Below the pieces are notes generated by a model. The model saw only the letters and a list, made by a program, of their open reading frames with translations, did no database searches and was not told where the DNA came from. Shown here piece by piece: positions 13,850 through 51,210 of a stretch of DNA of 64,000 nucleotides; position 1 is the stretch's first letter; each line of letters begins with the position of its first letter. Origin of the DNA: Leucoraja erinacea (lineage: Eukaryota). Where the stretch lies: NCBI RefSeq assembly GCF_028641065.1, contig NC_073408.1, forward strand, positions 9,362,001 to 9,426,000. The letters are read 5' to 3'. The position numbers and the translations under genes are program-made.

Positions 13850-14718
13850 CAGGCATGGAAATCGCTATCAAAATATGGAGGGGACCGGGGGACAGGGGAG
13901 ACACAATTTCTTGACGGCCGCCCNNNNNNNNNNNNNNNNNNNNNNNNNNNNNNNNNNNNNNNNNNNNNNNNNNNNNNNNNNNNNNNNNNNNNNNNNNNNN
14001 NNNNNNNNNNNNNNNNNNNNNNNNNNNNNNNNNNNNNNNNNNNNNNNNNNNNNNNNNNNNNNNNNNNNNNNNNNNNNNNNNGCGCTAAATGCAGCTCAAC
14101 TCTGCCTGTCTCACCGGGTTAACCTACAGCCCTGCCTGGACTGACGGGACACCAGCGCTGCTTCTCCGTGCTGGCTGTAAACCTGGGCCATATTTCCCAC
14201 AAGCCCAGGCAGGGCTGTAGGTTAACCTGGCGGGACAGGCAGAGTTGAGCTGGGTTTAGCGCTGCTTCTCTGCGCTGGCTGTGAGCCAGGGGGCACAGCT
14301 CCCGTCTGACTGCCGACGTCTCAGGCCACCCGTGGGAGGCACTCGGGTGGGGACGGGACAGTGCCGGACAGCCGGGATCGATCCTGGCTGCGGATGAGGC
14401 GCAGGTGCCGAGAGTGTTTTGGCACGTCTCCCTCCTCCAATCACCGCACTCTATCCTCAGTCCCAAAACCCCCTACCCCTCCCTCCTCCAATGATCGCGC
14501 TGAATCATCATGTTCTGCCCCCATTGCCTGCTGACCGACGTCTCTCTCGTACAATCGGCGCCCTCAATCAGCAGTCCTATCCCCACTGTCTCGCGGAAAG
14601 CGGATATTTCACCAGGTTTTAAAATCCGGATTACAAAAACTTGGGGGGGATCATTCCCCACCTCTCAAACCAGAGGGGGGGCATGTCCCTCCTGGCGCCC
14701 CTGGGATTTCCGCCCCTG
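13850..14718. mobile_element. GC-rich insertion, possibly a non-autonomous DNA transposon (spans an N gap)
   Basis: Imperfect termini caggcatggaaatc / gatttccgcccctg, flanks atgggatg / atggagtg (6 of 8 match), internal inverted repeat 14082-14140 vs 14205-14262. Absent from the paralogous units. Confidence 0.45.
13924..14081. other. Assembly gap (N run)
   Basis: Run of n. Confidence 1.
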
Positions 14719-15044
14719 ATGGAGTGAAGGGAGGAATATAGGTGGAAGAGTCACATAACATGAACAATGTTCTGTATATGGCTTCATCTCATATAACGGT
14801 GTAACTTCACCACTGAGGATACATGTTATCCCATAAATACAACAATACAACAAAAAAGTGGCCAATGATTTTATTCAATTTAGTACAAGACACAGAGTAC
14901 AGTGATCAATGGTTTTCCAGCTCACAAAAGTTGTTGCTACAGAATAATACAGTGATTGCTTTGAGAGGTTGCATTTCAAAGAACACAATATGACACTTTA
15001 TACACCTGATTTTTTACTGTTGCTGTTTGAGTAGAATGATTTGC

Positions 15045-15050
15045 TTTATT
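15045..15050 (-). terminator. Candidate polyadenylation signal (AATAAA) of Gig2 copy A
   Basis: AATAAA about 330 nt past the stop codon, followed by GU-rich sequence. Present at the equivalent position in copies B and C. Confidence 0.4.
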
Positions 15051-15381
15051 TCCCGAACTTGTTTTATTCCCACTGCAGCTGATGCTGATCTTCCTAATTA
15101 TCTGCTTTTCCGGTTTTAGCAACCTCCAATATAGTCACCAAAACAACCAATTTTTCACAAGATTTATACGATGAACATTGGTAGTTTATGGGATAACCCA
15201 CTTAATCCGTTTCTATTACTCTCTAAAGCATACTGAAGGTCATCTTCAAAAATAGGAGCTTTCTCCCACCGAACCCTATGTTTGATTGTCATATGTGGAG
15301 GTCCCACCACCATTGTTACACCCAAGATCACCATTATCCACATCTTCTAACTATTACCCCATTGCCCCAGTAAGATCACGA

Positions 15382-15876
15382 TTATTCAGTGAAGAACCAC
15401 TGGTTAGACAGATTACATTTGGGGTGAAATGCTTTAACAACTTTTATTCTTTTGGGATCCCAGACACAATCCTCTTCCAAACCACTTGGAACCATCCCAC
15501 AGCTTGGAGGGCACCAAGCAGTGTCATAGCCATGATAGTGCCATGTCTTCTGGAGTGGGTGCCCTTGATAATTTATCATTATGACTTTTCCCACATTGAC
15601 TCGCAACTTAAGCACAATCTTTTGGCTGGGATCGATGTCCAGGGGATACCTGCTAGCTTTTTGGAGGTCCCTACTGACATAGACTCCAGGACCGAGCATG
15701 CCACCTTTGGATCGATGGAAACCATTTTGACGAATGGCCTGTGCACTTGCAGCACTGGTTCCATGGTACATCACATAGATCTTGCCTTCAACTGGTGACA
15801 CAAGACTTTTGAGGCACGGTGGATTAAAACCAAGTCCATCTTCTTCAGCCCATATATTTTGCTGACAATAGGCCAT
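15382..15876 (-). CDS. gig2: Gig2-like protein, copy A (GCRV-induced gene 2 family; stand-alone PARP/ART-like catalytic domain), 164 aa, single coding exon
   Basis: Motifs IYVMYHGT, GMLGPGVYVSRD, ASRYP, GYDTAWCPP and SGLEEDCVWDPKRIKV are typical of Gig2. The start is the ATG at 15876 in a strong Kozak context (accATGg). The upstream part of the track ORF is an intron polypyrimidine tract ending in AG at 15905-15904. Confidence 0.92.
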   Translation of the reverse strand: MAYCQQNIWAEEDGLGFNPPCLKSLVSPVEGKIYVMYHGTSAASAQAIRQNGFHRSKGGMLGPGVYVSRDLQKASRYPLDIDPSQKIVLKLRVNVGKVIMINYQGHPLQKTWHYHGYDTAWCPPSCGMVPSGLEEDCVWDPKRIKVVKAFHPKCNLSNQWFFTE

Positions 15877-17429
15877 GGTAATGAGTCGAATTTCAAAACT
15901 TGCCTTTTGACGAAAATAAAATAAAATAAAATTAAGAGATTTATTAATTCTGTTCTTAATCCTCAACCAAATCTGATCACATTTCCCCCTCCACCCTGTC
16001 CCTTTTTACATTTCACTGCTCCACTTAGTTTCTTTTGTTTTACCATTTCCTCTTTATTTCACCTCTAGTGTTTATCATTATCTCTAACCATCTATCAATC
16101 GATTCCGCTTCCCTCGCCTATCACTTACTGGGCTTTGCCCCACCCCTTCTCTCCAGCTTCCTCGTCCCTGCTCCATCAGTCTGAAGATAGATCCCGATAA
16201 GATCCCAAAACAAGATCCATCCATTTTCCACCACAAATGCTGCGTCACCTGGTAAATTAATACTTTATACTTTGTAATCAGTACTTTGTTTTTAGCTCAA
16301 GCATCTGCATTCCTTTGTGTCTCCATGTGCCCCTCATGTTTTTCCATGCTGGTGAATCTGCCAAACAGATTTTTGGAAAAACATAAGGTAGACACAAAAT
16401 GCTGGAGTAACTCAGCAGGACAGGCAGCATCTCTGGAGAGAAGGAATGGGTGATGTTTTGGGTCAAGACCCTTCTTCAGTCTTTCGCTCCACTGCAAAAT
16501 CTGCTCAAGGTATGTTGCACCACTTGGAAAAACATACCCTGGCTTTGACTCAACCACAATCTTAAATATTGTAAAGGTATTTCAATGCCTTATGATATTG
16601 CCCTGACCAATATATCAATGAATAAATGTCTTGACTTGTATGTTGTGGTCTATATATTTTTAAGTATAAACTGGGTTATGAGTTGTCAGTTTCCTTTTAT
16701 ATGCAGAGAATAAATTAGTCAAATCTGGTTTTGTGATAGTGGAAAAGAAATTCCTTCCAGAGCAATGGATCAAATATTTACTTATCTTTCTAGATATATA
16801 TTTTGACATGTCTTCGAATCAACACTTCACACTGCCTCGGCAAGGCCACCAGCATAATCAAGAGCGAGTCTTAGTTTCTCCCCTCTCCCCTTTATGCAAG
16901 TGGTACAGAAGTGTGAAAACGTCCAGATTTAGGGACAGTTTCTTCCCAGTTGCTATCCCCAATTAGTATCACTAATTAGAGCAAAGTCCTGAGCTACCGT
17001 CCACCTCCTTGGAGACCCAATTGGACTTGATCTTGCACTAAATGTTATTCCTTTCATCCTGTATCTGTACTGTGGACAGCTTGATTTTAAGCATGTATAG
17101 TCTTTCCGCTGACTGGATCGCACGCAACAAAAAAGCTTTTCACTGCTCCTCGTATATGTGGCAATAAACTGAATAAACTAAACTCAACTCAACTAATTTG
17201 CCAATAGTTTAACCTTAGTACATCCAACCAATGTTTCTATCCCTTTCAAAATTTGCACAAAAATTTGGTTTCAATAGCAAGTTACGCAGAGTATGTGTAA
17301 AATACCAGTATCAGAAAACATCTATGGAACGATAAAGGTGAATTAACTTTAGAGGTTGAGTTCTTATATCAGAACTGGCCACTTTGGGCACAAGTTTCAA
17401 CAGTTGATTTTCTGAAGAGGAAAAGGAGT

Positions 17430-17441
17430 GAAATGGAAACT
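17430..17441 (+). promoter_or_regulatory. Intronic ISRE/IRF-E-like site (GAAATGGAAACT), also at 22944-22955
   Basis: Matches GAAANNGAAACT and is identical in the inferred intron of copies A and B. Confidence 0.4.
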
Positions 17442-18022
17442 TAAAGGCACGGGAGTCAGCACATTGACATTTTCCACAAGTTGTGTGTCTCTCTGTTCCC
17501 CGTTACTGACAACATTAAAGTGTGTTTCACCTCGTACACCGCTTATTATTTCTGCTTACAATGAAATAAAAATGCAAGAATTCATTCACAATTGATGTTC
17601 CAAAGGAAATCCAACTTCAACGCTCTTGTGATTGCAATAACAGGAAACGACTGTACAAATTTGTTGACTCAATCCTCTGCCATTCAGAGTCTTATTGACA
17701 GAAACTGTTACATGAAGCCATCAATATTTTTAACACAGTCCCATTTTCGCAGGAATACGACATGACAGCCTTAAAGATAATATCCCAGGGAAAAAGCACA
17801 CAGTTATGCAATTGGTCCCACACCCTTGCTCTTGTTCATAGCTTTTTGTTTTTGTAGTTTTCAAGTTTCCCCTGTTAAAACTTCACCTTCACTCAATAAT
17901 AATATTAATCAATATTAATTAATATTAGTATTAAATGTGTAAGAAAGTTCTCCTCTTCCCCTTTATTCCTTCACCACTTACAGTTTGGATCACACCCACA
18001 CAGGAGCAGAGATCATCATGTT

Positions 18023-18160
18023 ACTCACCGTGGTCCAGGAAGTCACACTGCCATCAGGATGGGCAAGATCTGTACTTTATTTCGAATTTTTTGAGTTTCA
18101 GTTTCAATTTCTTCAAAGTAGCTTTATAACGACAATTTTTGAGTTTATACTTCTCCGAAT
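18023..18160 (-). promoter_or_regulatory. Putative promoter and non-coding exon 1 of Gig2 copy A, with ISRE
   Basis: Donor CACG|GTGAGT (last exon base 18029). ISRE AGTTTCAGTTTC at 18094-18105 with a third GAAA half-site to 18111. TATAAA(-) at 18123-18128 and GAS-like TTCTCCGAA at 18151-18159. Confidence 0.7.
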
Positions 18161-20488: not shown

Positions 20489-20989
20489 TCAAGGATATTC
20501 GGTGAAGATCCACTGGTTATACTGATTATATTTTGGGCGAAATACATCAATAACTTTTATTCTTTTGGGATCCCAGACACAATCCTCTTCCAAACCACTT
20601 TGAACCATCCCACAGAATGGAGGGCACCAAGCAGTGTCATAGCCTTTACAGTGCCATGTCATCTGGAGTGGGTGCCCTTGATAATCTATCTTTTTGACTT
20701 TTCCCACATTGACTAGCAACTTAAGCACAATCTTTTGGCTAGGATCGATGTTCAGGGGATACCTGCTAGCTTTTTGGAGGTCCCTACTGACATAGACTCC
20801 AGGACCGAGCATGCCACCCTTGGATTGACAAAAACCGTTTGTTAGAATGGACTGTGCACTTACAGCACTGGTTCCATGGTACATCACATAGATCTTGTCT
20901 TCAATTGGTGACACAAGACTTTCGAGGCACGGTGGATTAAAACCAGGTCCATCTTCTTCAGCCCATATATTTTGCTGATAATAGGCCAT
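20489..20989 (-). CDS. gig2: Gig2-like protein, copy B, 166 aa, intact
   Basis: Same motifs as copy A, with about 29 aa differences by manual count. accATGg at 20989; tandem CAG-AAG acceptor at about 21022-21017. Confidence 0.92.
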   Translation of the reverse strand: MAYYQQNIWAEEDGPGFNPPCLESLVSPIEDKIYVMYHGTSAVSAQSILTNGFCQSKGGMLGPGVYVSRDLQKASRYPLNIDPSQKIVLKLLVNVGKVKKIDYQGHPLQMTWHCKGYDTAWCPPFCGMVQSGLEEDCVWDPKRIKVIDVFRPKYNQYNQWIFTEYP

Positions 20990-23503: not shown

Positions 23504-23612
23504 ACTCACCGTGCTCCAGGAAGTAACACTGCCGTCAGGATGGGGAACATCTGTCCTTTATTTTGAATTTTTTGGGTTTCAGTTTCAATTCCTCAAAAGT
23601 AGTTTTATAACG
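23504..23612 (-). promoter_or_regulatory. Putative promoter and non-coding exon 1 of Gig2 copy B, with ISRE
   Basis: Donor CACG|GTGAGT (last exon base 23510). ISRE GGTTTCAGTTTC at 23575-23586. Homologous to the copy A region. Confidence 0.7.
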
Positions 23613-31400: not shown

Positions 31401-32355
31401 TGCCCCAGTAAGATCAGGATTATTCGGTGAAGAACCACTGGTTAGACCGATTATTTTTTGGGCGAAATACATCAATAATTTTTATTCTTTTGGGATCCCA
31501 GACACAAACCACTTTTAACCTTCCCACACCTTGGAGGGCACCAAGCAGTGTCAAAGCCATGATAATCTATCTTTTTGACTTTTCCCGCATTGACCAGCAA
31601 CTGAAGCACAATCTTTTGCCTGTTATCCAGATCTAGGGGATATCTGCTGGCTTTATCAAGGCTACGTGTGACATAGACTCCAGGACCGAACGTGCCATCT
31701 TTGGATTGACAGAAACCACATTTACGAATGGCATGCGCATCTGCGACATTGGTTCCATGGTACATCACGTAGATCTTGTTTTCAACTGGTGCCAAACAGC
31801 TCGTGAGGCACCGTGGAATATGGCAGGCCATGGTAACGAGTCGAAGTTCGAAACTTGCCTTTTGACGAAAATAAAAGAAAATATAAGTAAGAGATTTATT
31901 AATTCTGTCCTAAATCATTCACCGAATCTGATCATATTTCCCCCTCCTCTTTCTTACTCCACCCTCTCCCTTCTCACATTCCACTTTTCCGCTTCTTTTC
32001 TTTTCCTATATCCTTTTGTCTCTGTTTTACCTTTAGACTTCATCATTACCTCTAGCCATCTCTCAATCAATTCCTCCTCCCTCACCTTTCACTTCCTGGG
32101 CTTTGCCCGACCCCATCTCTCCAGCTTCCGCGTCCCTGCTCCGTCAGTCTGAAGAAAGATCCCGACAAGATCGCAAAACAGGAACCGTTCATTTTCTACC
32201 ACAAATGCTGCCTCATCTGGCAAATTAATATTTTGTACTTTGTAAAAAGTACTTTGTTTTTAGCTCAAGCATCTGTAGTTGATGAGTCTCCATATGTCCA
32301 TATGTCCCTCATGTTCTTGCATGCTGGTGATTCTGCCAAACAGATTCTTGGAAAC
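28500..32355. repeat. Third duplication unit (C)
   Basis: 28500-29570 matches 12455-13650; 30255-30775 matches 19578-20090; 30775-32355 matches 14725-16380. Confidence 0.88.
31472..31831 (-). pseudogene. Gig2-like copy C, truncated and frameshifted (119 aa)
   Basis: Relative to A it is 13 codons shorter at the N-terminus and has a 33-nt in-frame deletion (QGHPLQKTWHY). An 11-nt deletion removes the EED codons and shifts the frame; the original C-terminus (WDPKRIKIIDVFRPK) continues in another frame. Homology to the A/B intron ends at about 32355 and no exon-1/ISRE copy was found. Confidence 0.8.
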
Positions 32356-49649: not shown

Positions 49650-51210
49650 AGAACCATAGAACCATAGAACATAGGTGCAGGAGTAGGCCACGGCCCTTCG
49701 AGCCAGCAACACCAATCAATTTGATCATGGCTGATCATCCAGAATCAGTACCCCGTTCCTGCTTTCTCCCCATATCCCTTGATTCTGTTAGCACAAAGAG
49801 CCACATCCATCTCTCTCTTCCATACATCCAGTGAATTAACCTCCACTGCCTTCTGTGGCATTTCACAGATTCACAATGCTCTGGGTGAAAAGGTTTTCCC
49901 TCATCTCAGTCCTAAATGGCCTACCTCTTATTCTTAAACTGTCACCCCTGGTTCTGGCCTCCCCCAACATCGAGAACATTTTTCCTGCATCTTGCCTGTC
50001 CAATCCCTTAATAATTTAATGTTTCTATAAGATCCCCTCACATCCTTCTAAATTCCAAGTGAATCTAAACCCAGTTGATCATTCTTTCATAGTATGTCAG
50101 TCCCACCATCCCGGGATTTAACCTGGTGAACCTACGCTGAACTCCCTCAATAGCAAGAATGTCCTTCCTCAAACTAGGAGACCAAAGCTACACACATGAC
50201 TCCAGCTGCATTCTCACCAGGGCCCTGTACAACTGCAGTAGGACCTCCTTGCTCCTACACTCAAATCCTCTTGCCATGAAGGCCAAGGACACCCAGGTCT
50301 CGTTGCACCTCCCCTTTTCCTAATCTGACACCATTCAGATAATAATCTGTCTTCTTATTCTTGCCAACAAAGTGGACAACCTCACATTTATCAACATTAT
50401 ACTACATCTGTCATGCATCTGTCCACTAACCCAACATATTCAAGTCACCCTGCAGCCTCCTCGCAGCTCACACTGCTAGCCAGCTCTATGTCACCTGGAA
50501 ACTTGGAGATTTACGTTTAATTCCTTTATCTAAATCGTTAATATATATTGTAAATAACTGGGGACCCAGCACTGAGCCTTGTGGCACCTCACTATTCTGA
50601 AAAAGGAATTTGCTTCCTGTCTGCCAACCAGTTCTCTGTCCAAGTCAATGCCGTACCCCAAATACCATGTGCTCCAATTTTGCACACTAATCTCTTGTGT
50701 GGGACCTTGTCAAAGGCTTTTTGAAAGTGCAGATACACCACATTCGCTGGCTCTCCCTTATCCATTCCACTTGTTACATCCTCAAAAAAATCCAGAAGAT
50801 TAGTCAAGCATGAGTTCCCCTTCATAAATCCATGCTGAGTTTGACCGATCCTGTCACTGCTTTCCAAATGCGCTGCTATTACATGTTTAATGATCGACTC
50901 AAGCATCTTCCCCTAACTGGTCTATAATTCCCTGTTTTCTCTCTCCCTGCTTAAAAAGTGCAGTAAAATTAGCTACCCTCCAGTCCACAGGAACTGATCC
51001 AGAGTCTATAGAACATTGGAAAATTATCACCAATGCATCCACGATTTCTGGGGCCACTTCCTTGAGTACTTTGGGATGCAGACCATCAGGTCCTGGGGAT
51101 TTATTGTATCTGCCTTCAGTCCCAACAGTTTACCCAACATCATTTCCTAACTAATGTGAATTTCCTTCAGTTCCTTCCACACGCTAGATCCACGTTACCC
51201 TAGTATTTCT
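49650..51210 (-). mobile_element. Degenerate CR1 LINE ORF2 fragment with internal deletions
   Basis: QHGFMKGNSCLTNLLDFFEDVT...FQKAFDKVPHKRL; 3' tail at about 49650. Confidence 0.9.

What the first reader, a model, noticed from the sequence alone, without database searches (positions are those of the whole stretch)
15382..15876. Complete H-Y-E catalytic triad retained in a 164-aa domain-only protein
Seen: H38 (MYHGT), Y66 (GVYVS), Y77 (ASRY) and E134/E135 (GLEEDCVW), all invariant between A and B. Established: PARP1 uses H862/Y896/E988 with stacking Y907, and many IFN-induced mammalian PARPs lack the Glu. Inference: A and B are active NAD+-consuming ARTD-like enzymes with no targeting domains, acting on protein or nucleic acid or as NADases.
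Basis: partly seen in the sequence, partly recalled or inferred. Interest (0 to 1): 0.7.

Follow-up and report, generated by a model that had tools for sequence, protein, structure and literature searches.

The report
Fish Gig2 antiviral mini-PARP gene cluster
This is an ordinary copy of Gig2, a known fish and amphibian antiviral gene family; its small protein keeps the sequence marks of a PARP-type enzyme, so it likely tags proteins with ADP-ribose after interferon induction, an activity that remains untested.

Summary
The ORF (15382-15876, minus strand, 164 aa) and the named residues are real. It is a Gig2-family gene: 61% identical to zebrafish DreI/gig2i and 74% to a skate protein. It is one of three tandem copies (two intact, one broken). 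Both intact copies have an ISRE, a likely non-coding first exon and a 5'-UTR intron, as DreI does. Invariance between A and B means little (chance 0.38), but H38/Y66/Y77/E135 are kept together in 273 of 310 homologous domains. AlphaFold models match PARP1/2 and tankyrase best (Z 10-11). Sequence register places E135, not E134, at PARP1 E988. M60 and K73 fall on PARP1's chain-elongation residues M890 and K903; PARP1 S904 is Ala, and an H826 equivalent seems absent. The family was already called PARP-like, or an ADP-ribosyltransferase, in print. My searches found no activity assay and no triad mapping, but two key reviews were not read. Verdict: new member of a known family, likely an active ADP-ribosyltransferase, substrate unknown. 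The scan earlier noted a Gig2-like tunicate family on other DNA.

The parts
15382..15876 (-). Gig2 copy A coding sequence, 164 aa, uninterrupted; ART/PARP-like domain about residues 29-156
15763..15765 (-). H38 (PARP1 H862 equivalent)
   Evidence: (HGT aligned to PARP10 HGT)
15697..15699 (-). M60 (PARP1 M890 / PARP4 N471 position, acceptor site)
   Evidence: 275 of 310 domains
15679..15681 (-). Y66 (triad Tyr; PARP4 Y477, PARP1 Y896)
15658..15660 (-). K73 (PARP1 K903 / PARP4 T484 position, needed for chain elongation in PARP1/2)
   Evidence: 299 of 310 domains
15646..15648 (-). Y77 (stacking Tyr, PARP1 Y907 position)
15472..15474 (-). E135, predicted catalytic Glu (PARP1 E988 / PARP4 E547 position); E134 (15475-15477) is the residue before it
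   Evidence: strand 135-138 in both models
15877..15903 (-). 27-nt untranslated start of exon 2, after a pyrimidine tract and AG acceptor (15904-15905); predicted
15904..18028 (-). predicted 5'-UTR intron of copy A (GTGAGT donor 18023-18028); contains high-copy repeats
   Evidence: repeat depth
18029..18070 (-). predicted non-coding exon 1 of copy A (start site not mapped); holds a three-codon upstream ORF beginning at 18054
18075..18081 (-). TATA-like AATAAAG of copy A
18094..18111 (-). double overlapping ISRE/IRF element of copy A
14870..15068 (-). three AATAAA candidate poly(A) signals, 314, 332 and 507 nt after the stop of A
20489..20989 (-). Gig2 copy B coding sequence, 166 aa, intact, 82% identical to A
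23504..23586 (-). copy B donor (23504-23509), predicted exon 1, TATA-like element (23556-23562) and ISRE (23575-23586)
31420..31831 (-). Gig2 copy C, broken: deletions of 39, 33 and 11 nt; the last removes codons 133-136 (both Glu) and shifts the frame; no matching promoter or exon 1 found

Best explanation
Copies A and B are Gig2-family genes with an ISRE upstream, likely switched on by interferon/IRF signalling, whose 164-166 aa products are predicted to fold as a bare PARP-type catalytic domain that likely binds NAD+ with H38/Y66/Y77 and would use E135 to transfer ADP-ribose, singly or in short chains, to host or viral proteins in the cytoplasm. Control would be mainly transcriptional, since no autoinhibitory or nucleic-acid-binding domain is present. 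Target choice would rest on the fast-changing variable positions and perhaps on the conserved N-terminal W-x-E-x-D segment. Shown here: family identity, gene anatomy by sequence, fold of the model, motif register and conservation. Taken from the literature on the zebrafish relative DreI: ISRE-dependent induction, cytoplasmic location and antiviral effect. Inferred: catalysis, a protein substrate, and the same regulation in this species.
For: Identity: 1104 hits at E<=0.001, including zebrafish gig2i/DreI (61%), crucian carp interferon-inducible protein (66%) and Rhinoraja (74%). Pfam PARP PF00644 scores above its cut-off for A (29.7 vs 26.7 bits) and B (32). Fold: models with pLDDT 84 and 89. 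Foldseek's top hit is tankyrase-2 (E 1e-6). VIA-align gives TNKS2, PARP2 and PARP1 Z 11.1-11.2, rmsd 2.5-2.9 A over 121-127 residues, against diphtheria toxin 9.0, Tpt1 5.9 and DarTG 5.4. Register: placing the catalytic position of 3 host PARP exons and 1 viral ART-like domain on Gig2 133-137 scores best at 135 in 4 of 4. Of 15 domains lacking H38, 4 keep E135 but 13 keep E134. Constraint: 1 of 73 conserved columns but 28 of 91 variable columns differ between A and B (p=1.6e-7). Regulation: the ISRE, TATA-like element, short first exon and 5'-UTR intron mirror DreI, whose ISRE is required for induction (PMC3296712, passages).
Against: No activity was measured, and no Gig2 enzyme assay turned up in my searches. 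The PARP1 S904 position, part of the nicotinamide site, is Ala in A and in 298 of 310 domains. The HMMER alignment to PARP4, as printed, pairs E134/E135 with E544/D545 and leaves E547 in an insertion; E135=E547 needs anchoring on the strand. The H38/E135 co-loss comes from only 2 of 5 independent H38 losses; the other 3 keep both Glu. Nothing tested here identifies the substrate. Expression evidence is thin: raw RNA run X21 gave depth 0.1-2.9 on the CDS and similar depth in intron bins, X14 gave 0, and the splice joint was not displayed. In salmon, 8 gig genes with an ISRE did not respond (bioRxiv 2025.07.01.662619).
Confidence: 0.55

Rival explanations
1. It is an active ART whose main substrate is nucleic acid (viral RNA or DNA ends or bases) rather than protein.
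For: It is small, domain-only and antiviral against both an RNA and a DNA virus (DreI). Phage ART-PolyVal-like domains are related. The conserved aromatic residues W112, Y117, W121 and W139 could stack bases (inference).
Against: Nucleic-acid ARTs score far lower structurally (DarTG Z 5.4-5.6, Tpt1 5.7-5.9, Scabin 6.3-6.8) than PARP1/2 and TNKS (Z 10-11). PMC5512222 groups Gig2 with protein-modifying ARTs (a prediction, not an assay).
Confidence: 0.2
2. It acts mainly as an NADase that drains NAD+ in infected cells.
For: It has no targeting domain and carries two conserved acidic residues in the active-site loop. NAD-degrading toxins appear among the fold hits (MbcT Z 8.3-8.5).
Against: It retains the acceptor-site M60 and K73. 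Variable columns change faster than the intron (0.153 vs 0.085, p=0.003), which suits a macromolecular partner. DreI-overexpressing cells were protected from virus; by inference they were not killed.
Confidence: 0.13
3. It is an NAD+/ADP-ribose-binding pseudo-enzyme or scaffold, as described for PARP13 or TASOR, that restricts virus without catalysis.
For: Ala stands at the S904 position. PARP13 and TASOR domains also score Z 8.6-10.3. No activity report was found.
Against: H38, M60, Y66, K73, Y77 and E135 are all kept in 254 of 310 domains. Separate degenerate second units (H to Y, E to Q/K) exist in the family, so ordinary units are under a constraint that the degenerate ones have lost.
Confidence: 0.12

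Closest known systems
Gig2 (GCRV-induced gene 2) family, e.g. zebrafish DreI/gig2i (PMC3617106, PMC3296712; passages read)
   Same: 61% identity to DreI over 93% of the query; single basic unit; ISRE near the start; intron in the 5' UTR; tandem duplication; a host that is likely a cartilaginous fish, a group where the family was already reported.
   Different: Nothing fundamental. The 2013 paper called the C-terminal half a novel domain unique to the family; the models show it is the second half of the ART fold and carries the predicted catalytic Glu.
PARP1/PARP2 and tankyrase catalytic domains (H-Y-E poly-ARTs)
   Same: Best structural matches (Z 10-11); same spacing of Met(-6), Lys(+7) and Tyr(+11) around the triad Tyr; same Glu strand register.
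   Different: About 130-residue core without helical, DNA-binding, ankyrin or SAM domains; Ala at the S904 position; Leu at the Y986 position (TNKS2 also has L-x-E); PARP1 H826 lies outside the aligned range 849-1011.
PARP3/PARP4 (H-Y-E mono-ARTs)
   Same: H-Y-E motif; Z 10-11; they show that H-Y-E alone does not imply chain formation (PMC10711553).
   Different: PARP3 has Arg and PARP4 Asn at the M890 position, and PARP4 has Thr at K903; Gig2 has Met and Lys.
Interferon-linked mammalian PARPs (PARP10/12/14/15; the interferon link is recalled)
   Same: Closest PDB sequences by HMM (E 3e-5); antiviral role.
   Different: They lack the Glu and carry reader domains (recalled, partly); Gig2 has the Glu and no reader domain.

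Membership tests
Gig2 family | high sequence identity to named Gig2 proteins over the basic unit | tested here: met
   61% to zebrafish gig2i, 66% to the carp interferon-inducible protein, 64-65% to batoid gig2o/p
Gig2 family | N-terminal PARP-signature-like stretch plus conserved C-terminal part | tested here: met
   PF00644 at residues 34-105; invariant columns through 106-139
Gig2 family | non-amniote vertebrate host | tested here: inconclusive
   Host not named; 2.19-Gb genome; closest named hit is a skate at 74%; a cartilaginous fish is inferred
Gig2 family | ISRE promoter and intron in the 5' UTR (as in DreI) | tested here: met
   Met by sequence; the splice joint was not seen directly
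Gig2 family | induction by interferon or virus, and antiviral effect | not testable with these tools
   No stimulated sample could be identified among the coded runs
ARTD (H-Y-[EDQ]) ADP-ribosyltransferases | ART fold | tested here: met
   Foldseek E 1e-6; VIA-align Z 11.2, rmsd 2.5-2.9 A, 121-127 residues
ARTD (H-Y-[EDQ]) ADP-ribosyltransferases | H, Y and E in PARP sequence register | tested here: met
   E135 scored best in 4 of 4 register tests; the printed PARP4 HMM alignment differs by a 2-residue gap placement
ARTD (H-Y-[EDQ]) ADP-ribosyltransferases | the three side chains converge on the NAD+ pocket | tested here: inconclusive
   The fold tools give aligned ranges, not residue pairs or coordinates
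ARTD (H-Y-[EDQ]) ADP-ribosyltransferases | NAD+-dependent ADP-ribose transfer | not testable with these tools
   Needs an assay
Poly(ADP-ribose) polymerases (PARP1/2, TNKS) | acceptor-site Met890 and Lys903 | tested here: met
   M60 in 275 of 310 and K73 in 299 of 310 domains; register; the Met also occurs in a host H-Y-less-Lys PARP exon L002, so it is not diagnostic alone
Poly(ADP-ribose) polymerases (PARP1/2, TNKS) | acceptor-site His826 | tested here: inconclusive
   PARP1 aligns only from residue 849-853 onward, so an equivalent seems absent
Poly(ADP-ribose) polymerases (PARP1/2, TNKS) | Ser904 of the nicotinamide site | tested here: not met
   Ala74; Ala in 298 of 310 domains
DarT / Tpt1 nucleic-acid ARTs | closest fold and family profile | tested here: inconclusive
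   Listed at Z 5.3-5.9, well below the PARPs; no such Pfam hit at E<=1

The most novel reading that the evidence does not exclude
Gig2 proteins are minimal, interferon-induced poly(ADP-ribose) polymerases: a ~130-residue core with the H-Y-E triad plus the M890 and K903 elongation residues and no autoinhibitory domain. This would be a PAR-making antiviral branch kept in fish and amphibians and lost in amniotes, with paralogues diversifying at variable positions against viral targets.
Probability: 0.2. Interest if true: 0.72.

Novelty: new member of a known kind. Interest (0 to 1): 0.36.

Why it matters
Gig2 genes are established fish antiviral genes whose mechanism was still described as largely unknown in 2025. 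The locus itself is routine. The residue map (H38, Y66, E135, plus M60 and K73) makes the mechanism question directly testable with four point mutants. It also corrects the published view that the C-terminal half is a separate novel domain. If chains are made, it would add a very small PAR polymerase to vertebrate immunity.

Tried and rejected
1. 'Invariant between A and B' was rejected as evidence: chance 0.38.
2. E134 was rejected as the catalytic residue: it scored negative in all 4 register tests.
3. Overall positive selection between A and B is not shown: dN/dS 1.38, p=0.56. Only the variable-column subset exceeds the intron rate, from a single pair.
4. Prokaryotic context as a clue to substrate led nowhere. 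There was no relative among 66 pattern matches in GTDB genomes and no tblastn match in 50,697 phage records. One partial IMG/VR hit (L001, residues 36-77) came from 39 stretches. These searches need close words, so they do not show absence.
5. The ESM Atlas gave only PARP-labelled chordate clusters and one unnamed bacterial cluster, not followed.
6. No RNA holder on record was listed for the stretch. Both read-laying runs were swamped by intronic repeats, so the exon 1-exon 2 joint did not appear among the rows shown.
7. (profile against its own member) was uninformative.
8. A homodimer prediction was not obtained, so self-association is untested.
9. A Pfam scan of 140 of 181 stop-to-stop frames of 72 aa or more found one reverse-transcriptase fragment and no neighbouring gene. 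Short exons would be missed.
10. The 2015 review on the natural history of ARTs was not held, and de Souza & Aravind 2012 was seen only as a citation. From recall they treat Gig2 as an H-Y-[EDQ] ART, so the triad may be in print there.
11. Supplements of PMC3617106 were listed but not read, and bioRxiv supplements are closed; alignments there may mark the residues.

Full report
Observation. The stretch 15382-15876 on the minus strand is an uninterrupted 164-codon ORF, with H38, Y66, Y77, E134 and E135 exactly as described. tblastn of the window finds a second intact copy B (20489-20989, 82% identical) and a broken copy C (about 31420-31831). A search of the whole 2.19-Gb genome finds only these three (counts there are lower bounds). 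The three lie in duplicated DNA blocks of 75-91% identity.

Identity. The protein belongs to the Gig2 family. A homologue search gave 1104 hits at E<=0.001 among 1140 candidates. Among the 120 listed are a Rhinoraja protein (74%, 163 aa), batoid gig2o/p (64-65%), the carp interferon-inducible protein (66%) and zebrafish gig2i/DreI (61%). The host is therefore likely a skate or ray (inference). A and B pass the Pfam PARP cut-off. Zhang et al. 2013 (PMC3617106, passages read) define Gig2 as specific to non-amniotes, sharks and rays included, with an N-terminal half weakly like the PARP signature and a C-terminal half they call a novel domain. bioRxiv 693333 calls Gig2 'IFN induced ADP-ribosyltransferases' (passages), and PMC5512222 lists Gig2 among protein-modifying ARTs (passage).

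Conservation. In 58 single-unit homologues (those of 130-215 aa among the 120 listed), H38, M60, Y66, K73, Y77, E134 and E135 are each invariant. A profile search of 50%-identity representatives gave 1898 hits, of which 150 were listed. Pooling all 260 fetched proteins gave 352 domain matches, 310 of them spanning residues 38-139; the other 42 were left out. Among the 310, H38 is kept in 295, Y66 in 304, Y77 in 291, E134 in 288, E135 in 290, M60 in 275 and K73 in 299. H38/Y66/Y77/E135 occur together in 273, and all six including M60 and K73 in 254. These are the best-scoring hits, so they lean towards conservation.

Fold. Two AlphaFold2 models (60- and 78-sequence alignments) reached mean pLDDT 84.0 and 88.8, with strands at 33-41, 65-68 and 135-138. 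Foldseek ranks tankyrase-2 first (E 1.1e-6). VIA-align against 48,161 chains ranks TNKS2, PARP2 and PARP1 at Z 11.1-11.2 (rmsd 2.5-2.9 A, 121-127 residues). PARP3 scores 10.7, PARP4 10.5, PARP13 10.2, diphtheria toxin 9.0, Tpt1 5.9 and DarTG 5.4 (one search is similar). The alignment spans both halves of the protein, so the 'novel C-terminal domain' is the second half of the ART fold. The tools print no residue pairs, so side-chain convergence was not measured.

Which glutamate. PARP exons from the window's own genome allowed a register test. Placing the catalytic position of a PARP2-like, a PARP3-like and a mono-PARP-like exon (labels from my recall of the motifs), and of a viral ART-like domain, on Gig2 positions 133-137 gave the best gapless score at 135 in 4 of 4, with all other offsets negative. 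Counting back along the strand in the PARP4 alignment also gives E135 = E547, although HMMER printed the pair as E135-D545 with a two-residue insertion (numbering from PMC10711553, passages). Of 15 domains without H38, only 4 keep E135 while 13 keep E134. A tree shows these are 5 independent losses, in 2 of which E135 was also lost (one is an 11-member clade), so this support is modest.

Acceptor site. Around the triad Tyr, copy A has Met at -6, Lys at +7, Ala at +8 and Tyr at +11. The host PARP1-like and tankyrase-like exons have Met, Lys, Ser, Tyr. The PARP3-like exon has Arg at -6, and two other PARP exons have Tyr at +7. These offsets match PARP1 M890, K903, S904 and Y907. PMC10711553 reports that K903A turns PARP1 from a poly into a mono enzyme, and that PARP3/4 are mono enzymes despite H-Y-E because of acceptor-site changes, including lack of H826. 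Gig2 thus has two acceptor residues of the polymerases. It seems to lack H826 (PARP1 aligns only from 849) and has Ala for S904. Chain formation is possible but not the default expectation.

Gene anatomy. An AG acceptor after a pyrimidine tract lies 27 nt before the ATG in all three copies. About 2.1 kb upstream of A are a GTGAGT donor (18023-18028), a short exon, a TATA-like AATAAAG (18075-18081) and a double ISRE (18094-18111). B has the same set at 23504-23586. A strict ISRE pattern, chosen after I had seen the site, matches 4 times in the window against 0.36 expected, 3 of them in these two promoters. The looser published consensus matches 10 times, again 3 of them there. Zebrafish DreI has the same layout, needs its ISRE for induction, is cytoplasmic and protects cells from an RNA and a DNA virus, by a mechanism called elusive (PMC3296712, passages). 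The exon-1 ATGs are out of frame with the ORF, so no targeting domain is added by this exon; other upstream exons are not excluded. The promoter block occurs only twice in the genome. C has lost 39, 33 and 11 nt, the last deletion removing codons 133-136 and shifting the frame, so it is a likely pseudogene.

Expression. Contigs of three runs guessed to be RNA cover the coding exon, including pieces identical to A (15300-15437, 15466-15608, 15733-15863). They give no depth in the unique intron bins 16587-16784 and 17280-17972, nor at A's predicted exon 1. A 783-nt contig closer to B aligns from its 27th letter and stops 6 bases short of the acceptor. The bin holding B's exon 1 has mean depth 0.99, which would fit about 22 letters of that contig (my arithmetic). 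Against this, raw RNA run X21 shows depth 0.1-2.9 on the CDS and similar depth in intron bins, X14 shows none, and no exon joint was displayed. Transcription and splicing are suggested, not shown.

Evolution of the pair. A and B differ at 1 of 73 columns conserved in the 58 outside homologues and at 28 of 91 others (p=1.6e-7). Overall dN/dS is 1.38 and not significantly above 1 (34 non-synonymous vs 7 synonymous changes, p=0.56). At variable codons the non-synonymous rate (0.153) exceeds the intron substitution rate (173 of 2028 = 0.085, p=0.003) and the synonymous rate (0.065, p=0.03). This fits a constrained catalytic core with diversifying variable positions, but it rests on one pair.

Mechanism and novelty. 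Most likely (0.55) this is an interferon-induced ART acting on proteins. Nucleic-acid transfer (0.2), NADase (0.13) and pseudo-enzyme (0.12) remain open. The gene is a new member of a known family. Searches for Gig2 with PARP (11 papers), ADP-ribosyl (8), NAD (4), enzymatic activity (1) and 'GCRV-induced gene' with ADP-ribosyl (1) showed no activity assay in the listings or in the passages I read. The 2013 paper has no occurrence of 'triad', and the 2025 salmon preprint none of 'catalytic' or 'NAD'. The library lacks most subscription papers, two Aravind-group papers were not read, and supplements were not read, so the triad may already be in print. An earlier, unreviewed note of this scan (e1-10096640) describes a Gig2-like two-domain family with a dead second unit in another animal. 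I did not test it; it parallels the degenerate second units found here beforehand. Interest 0.36: ordinary locus, but a sharp test for an open mechanism.

Noticed in passing
P0013, P0017, P0018, P0020, P0022, P0025, P0026, P0030, P0031, P0043, P0046 (second domains): Two-unit Gig2 proteins (the named ones are cypriniform) pair an intact first unit with a second unit carrying H38Y and mostly E135Q/K. They form one clade with support 0.985 and look like an enzyme plus pseudo-enzyme pair.
   Followed up: partly
window 15793-15852 (-), residues 9-28: The N-terminal W-x-E-x-D...C-L-x-S motif is near-invariant in single-unit close homologues (W9, E11 in 58 of 58) but aligned in only 36 of 149 distant domains, and has lower model confidence. 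It is a possible targeting or regulatory segment.
   Followed up: partly
window 31507-31565: Two of the deletions in copy C are flanked by short direct repeats of 3-5 nt, as expected for microhomology-mediated loss (read by eye).
   Followed up: no
window 18043-18054 (-): A three-codon upstream ORF lies in the predicted exon 1 of copy A; copy B has ACG at that place.
   Followed up: no
P0237, P0238, P0242: Unnamed proteins of 769-1109 aa carry an internal Gig2-like domain with S-E in place of E-E, so fused forms exist elsewhere.
   Followed up: no
L001:3900-4300: A large viral protein holds an ART-like domain with H-G-T, G-P-G-V-Y and E-x-x-x-x-D-P motifs in the same register as Gig2, but without the Met and Lys acceptor residues.
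   Followed up: partly
window 50595-50912 (-) and many 300-650 bp repeats between 2400 and 62600: Reverse-transcriptase (LINE-type) fragments and short high-copy repeats fill the window; no other protein-coding gene was detected by Pfam.
   Followed up: partly
window 14001-14500: This is the only CpG-rich 500-bp bin in the window (GC 0.53, observed/expected 0.69), beside a masked stretch just downstream of copy A.
   Followed up: no
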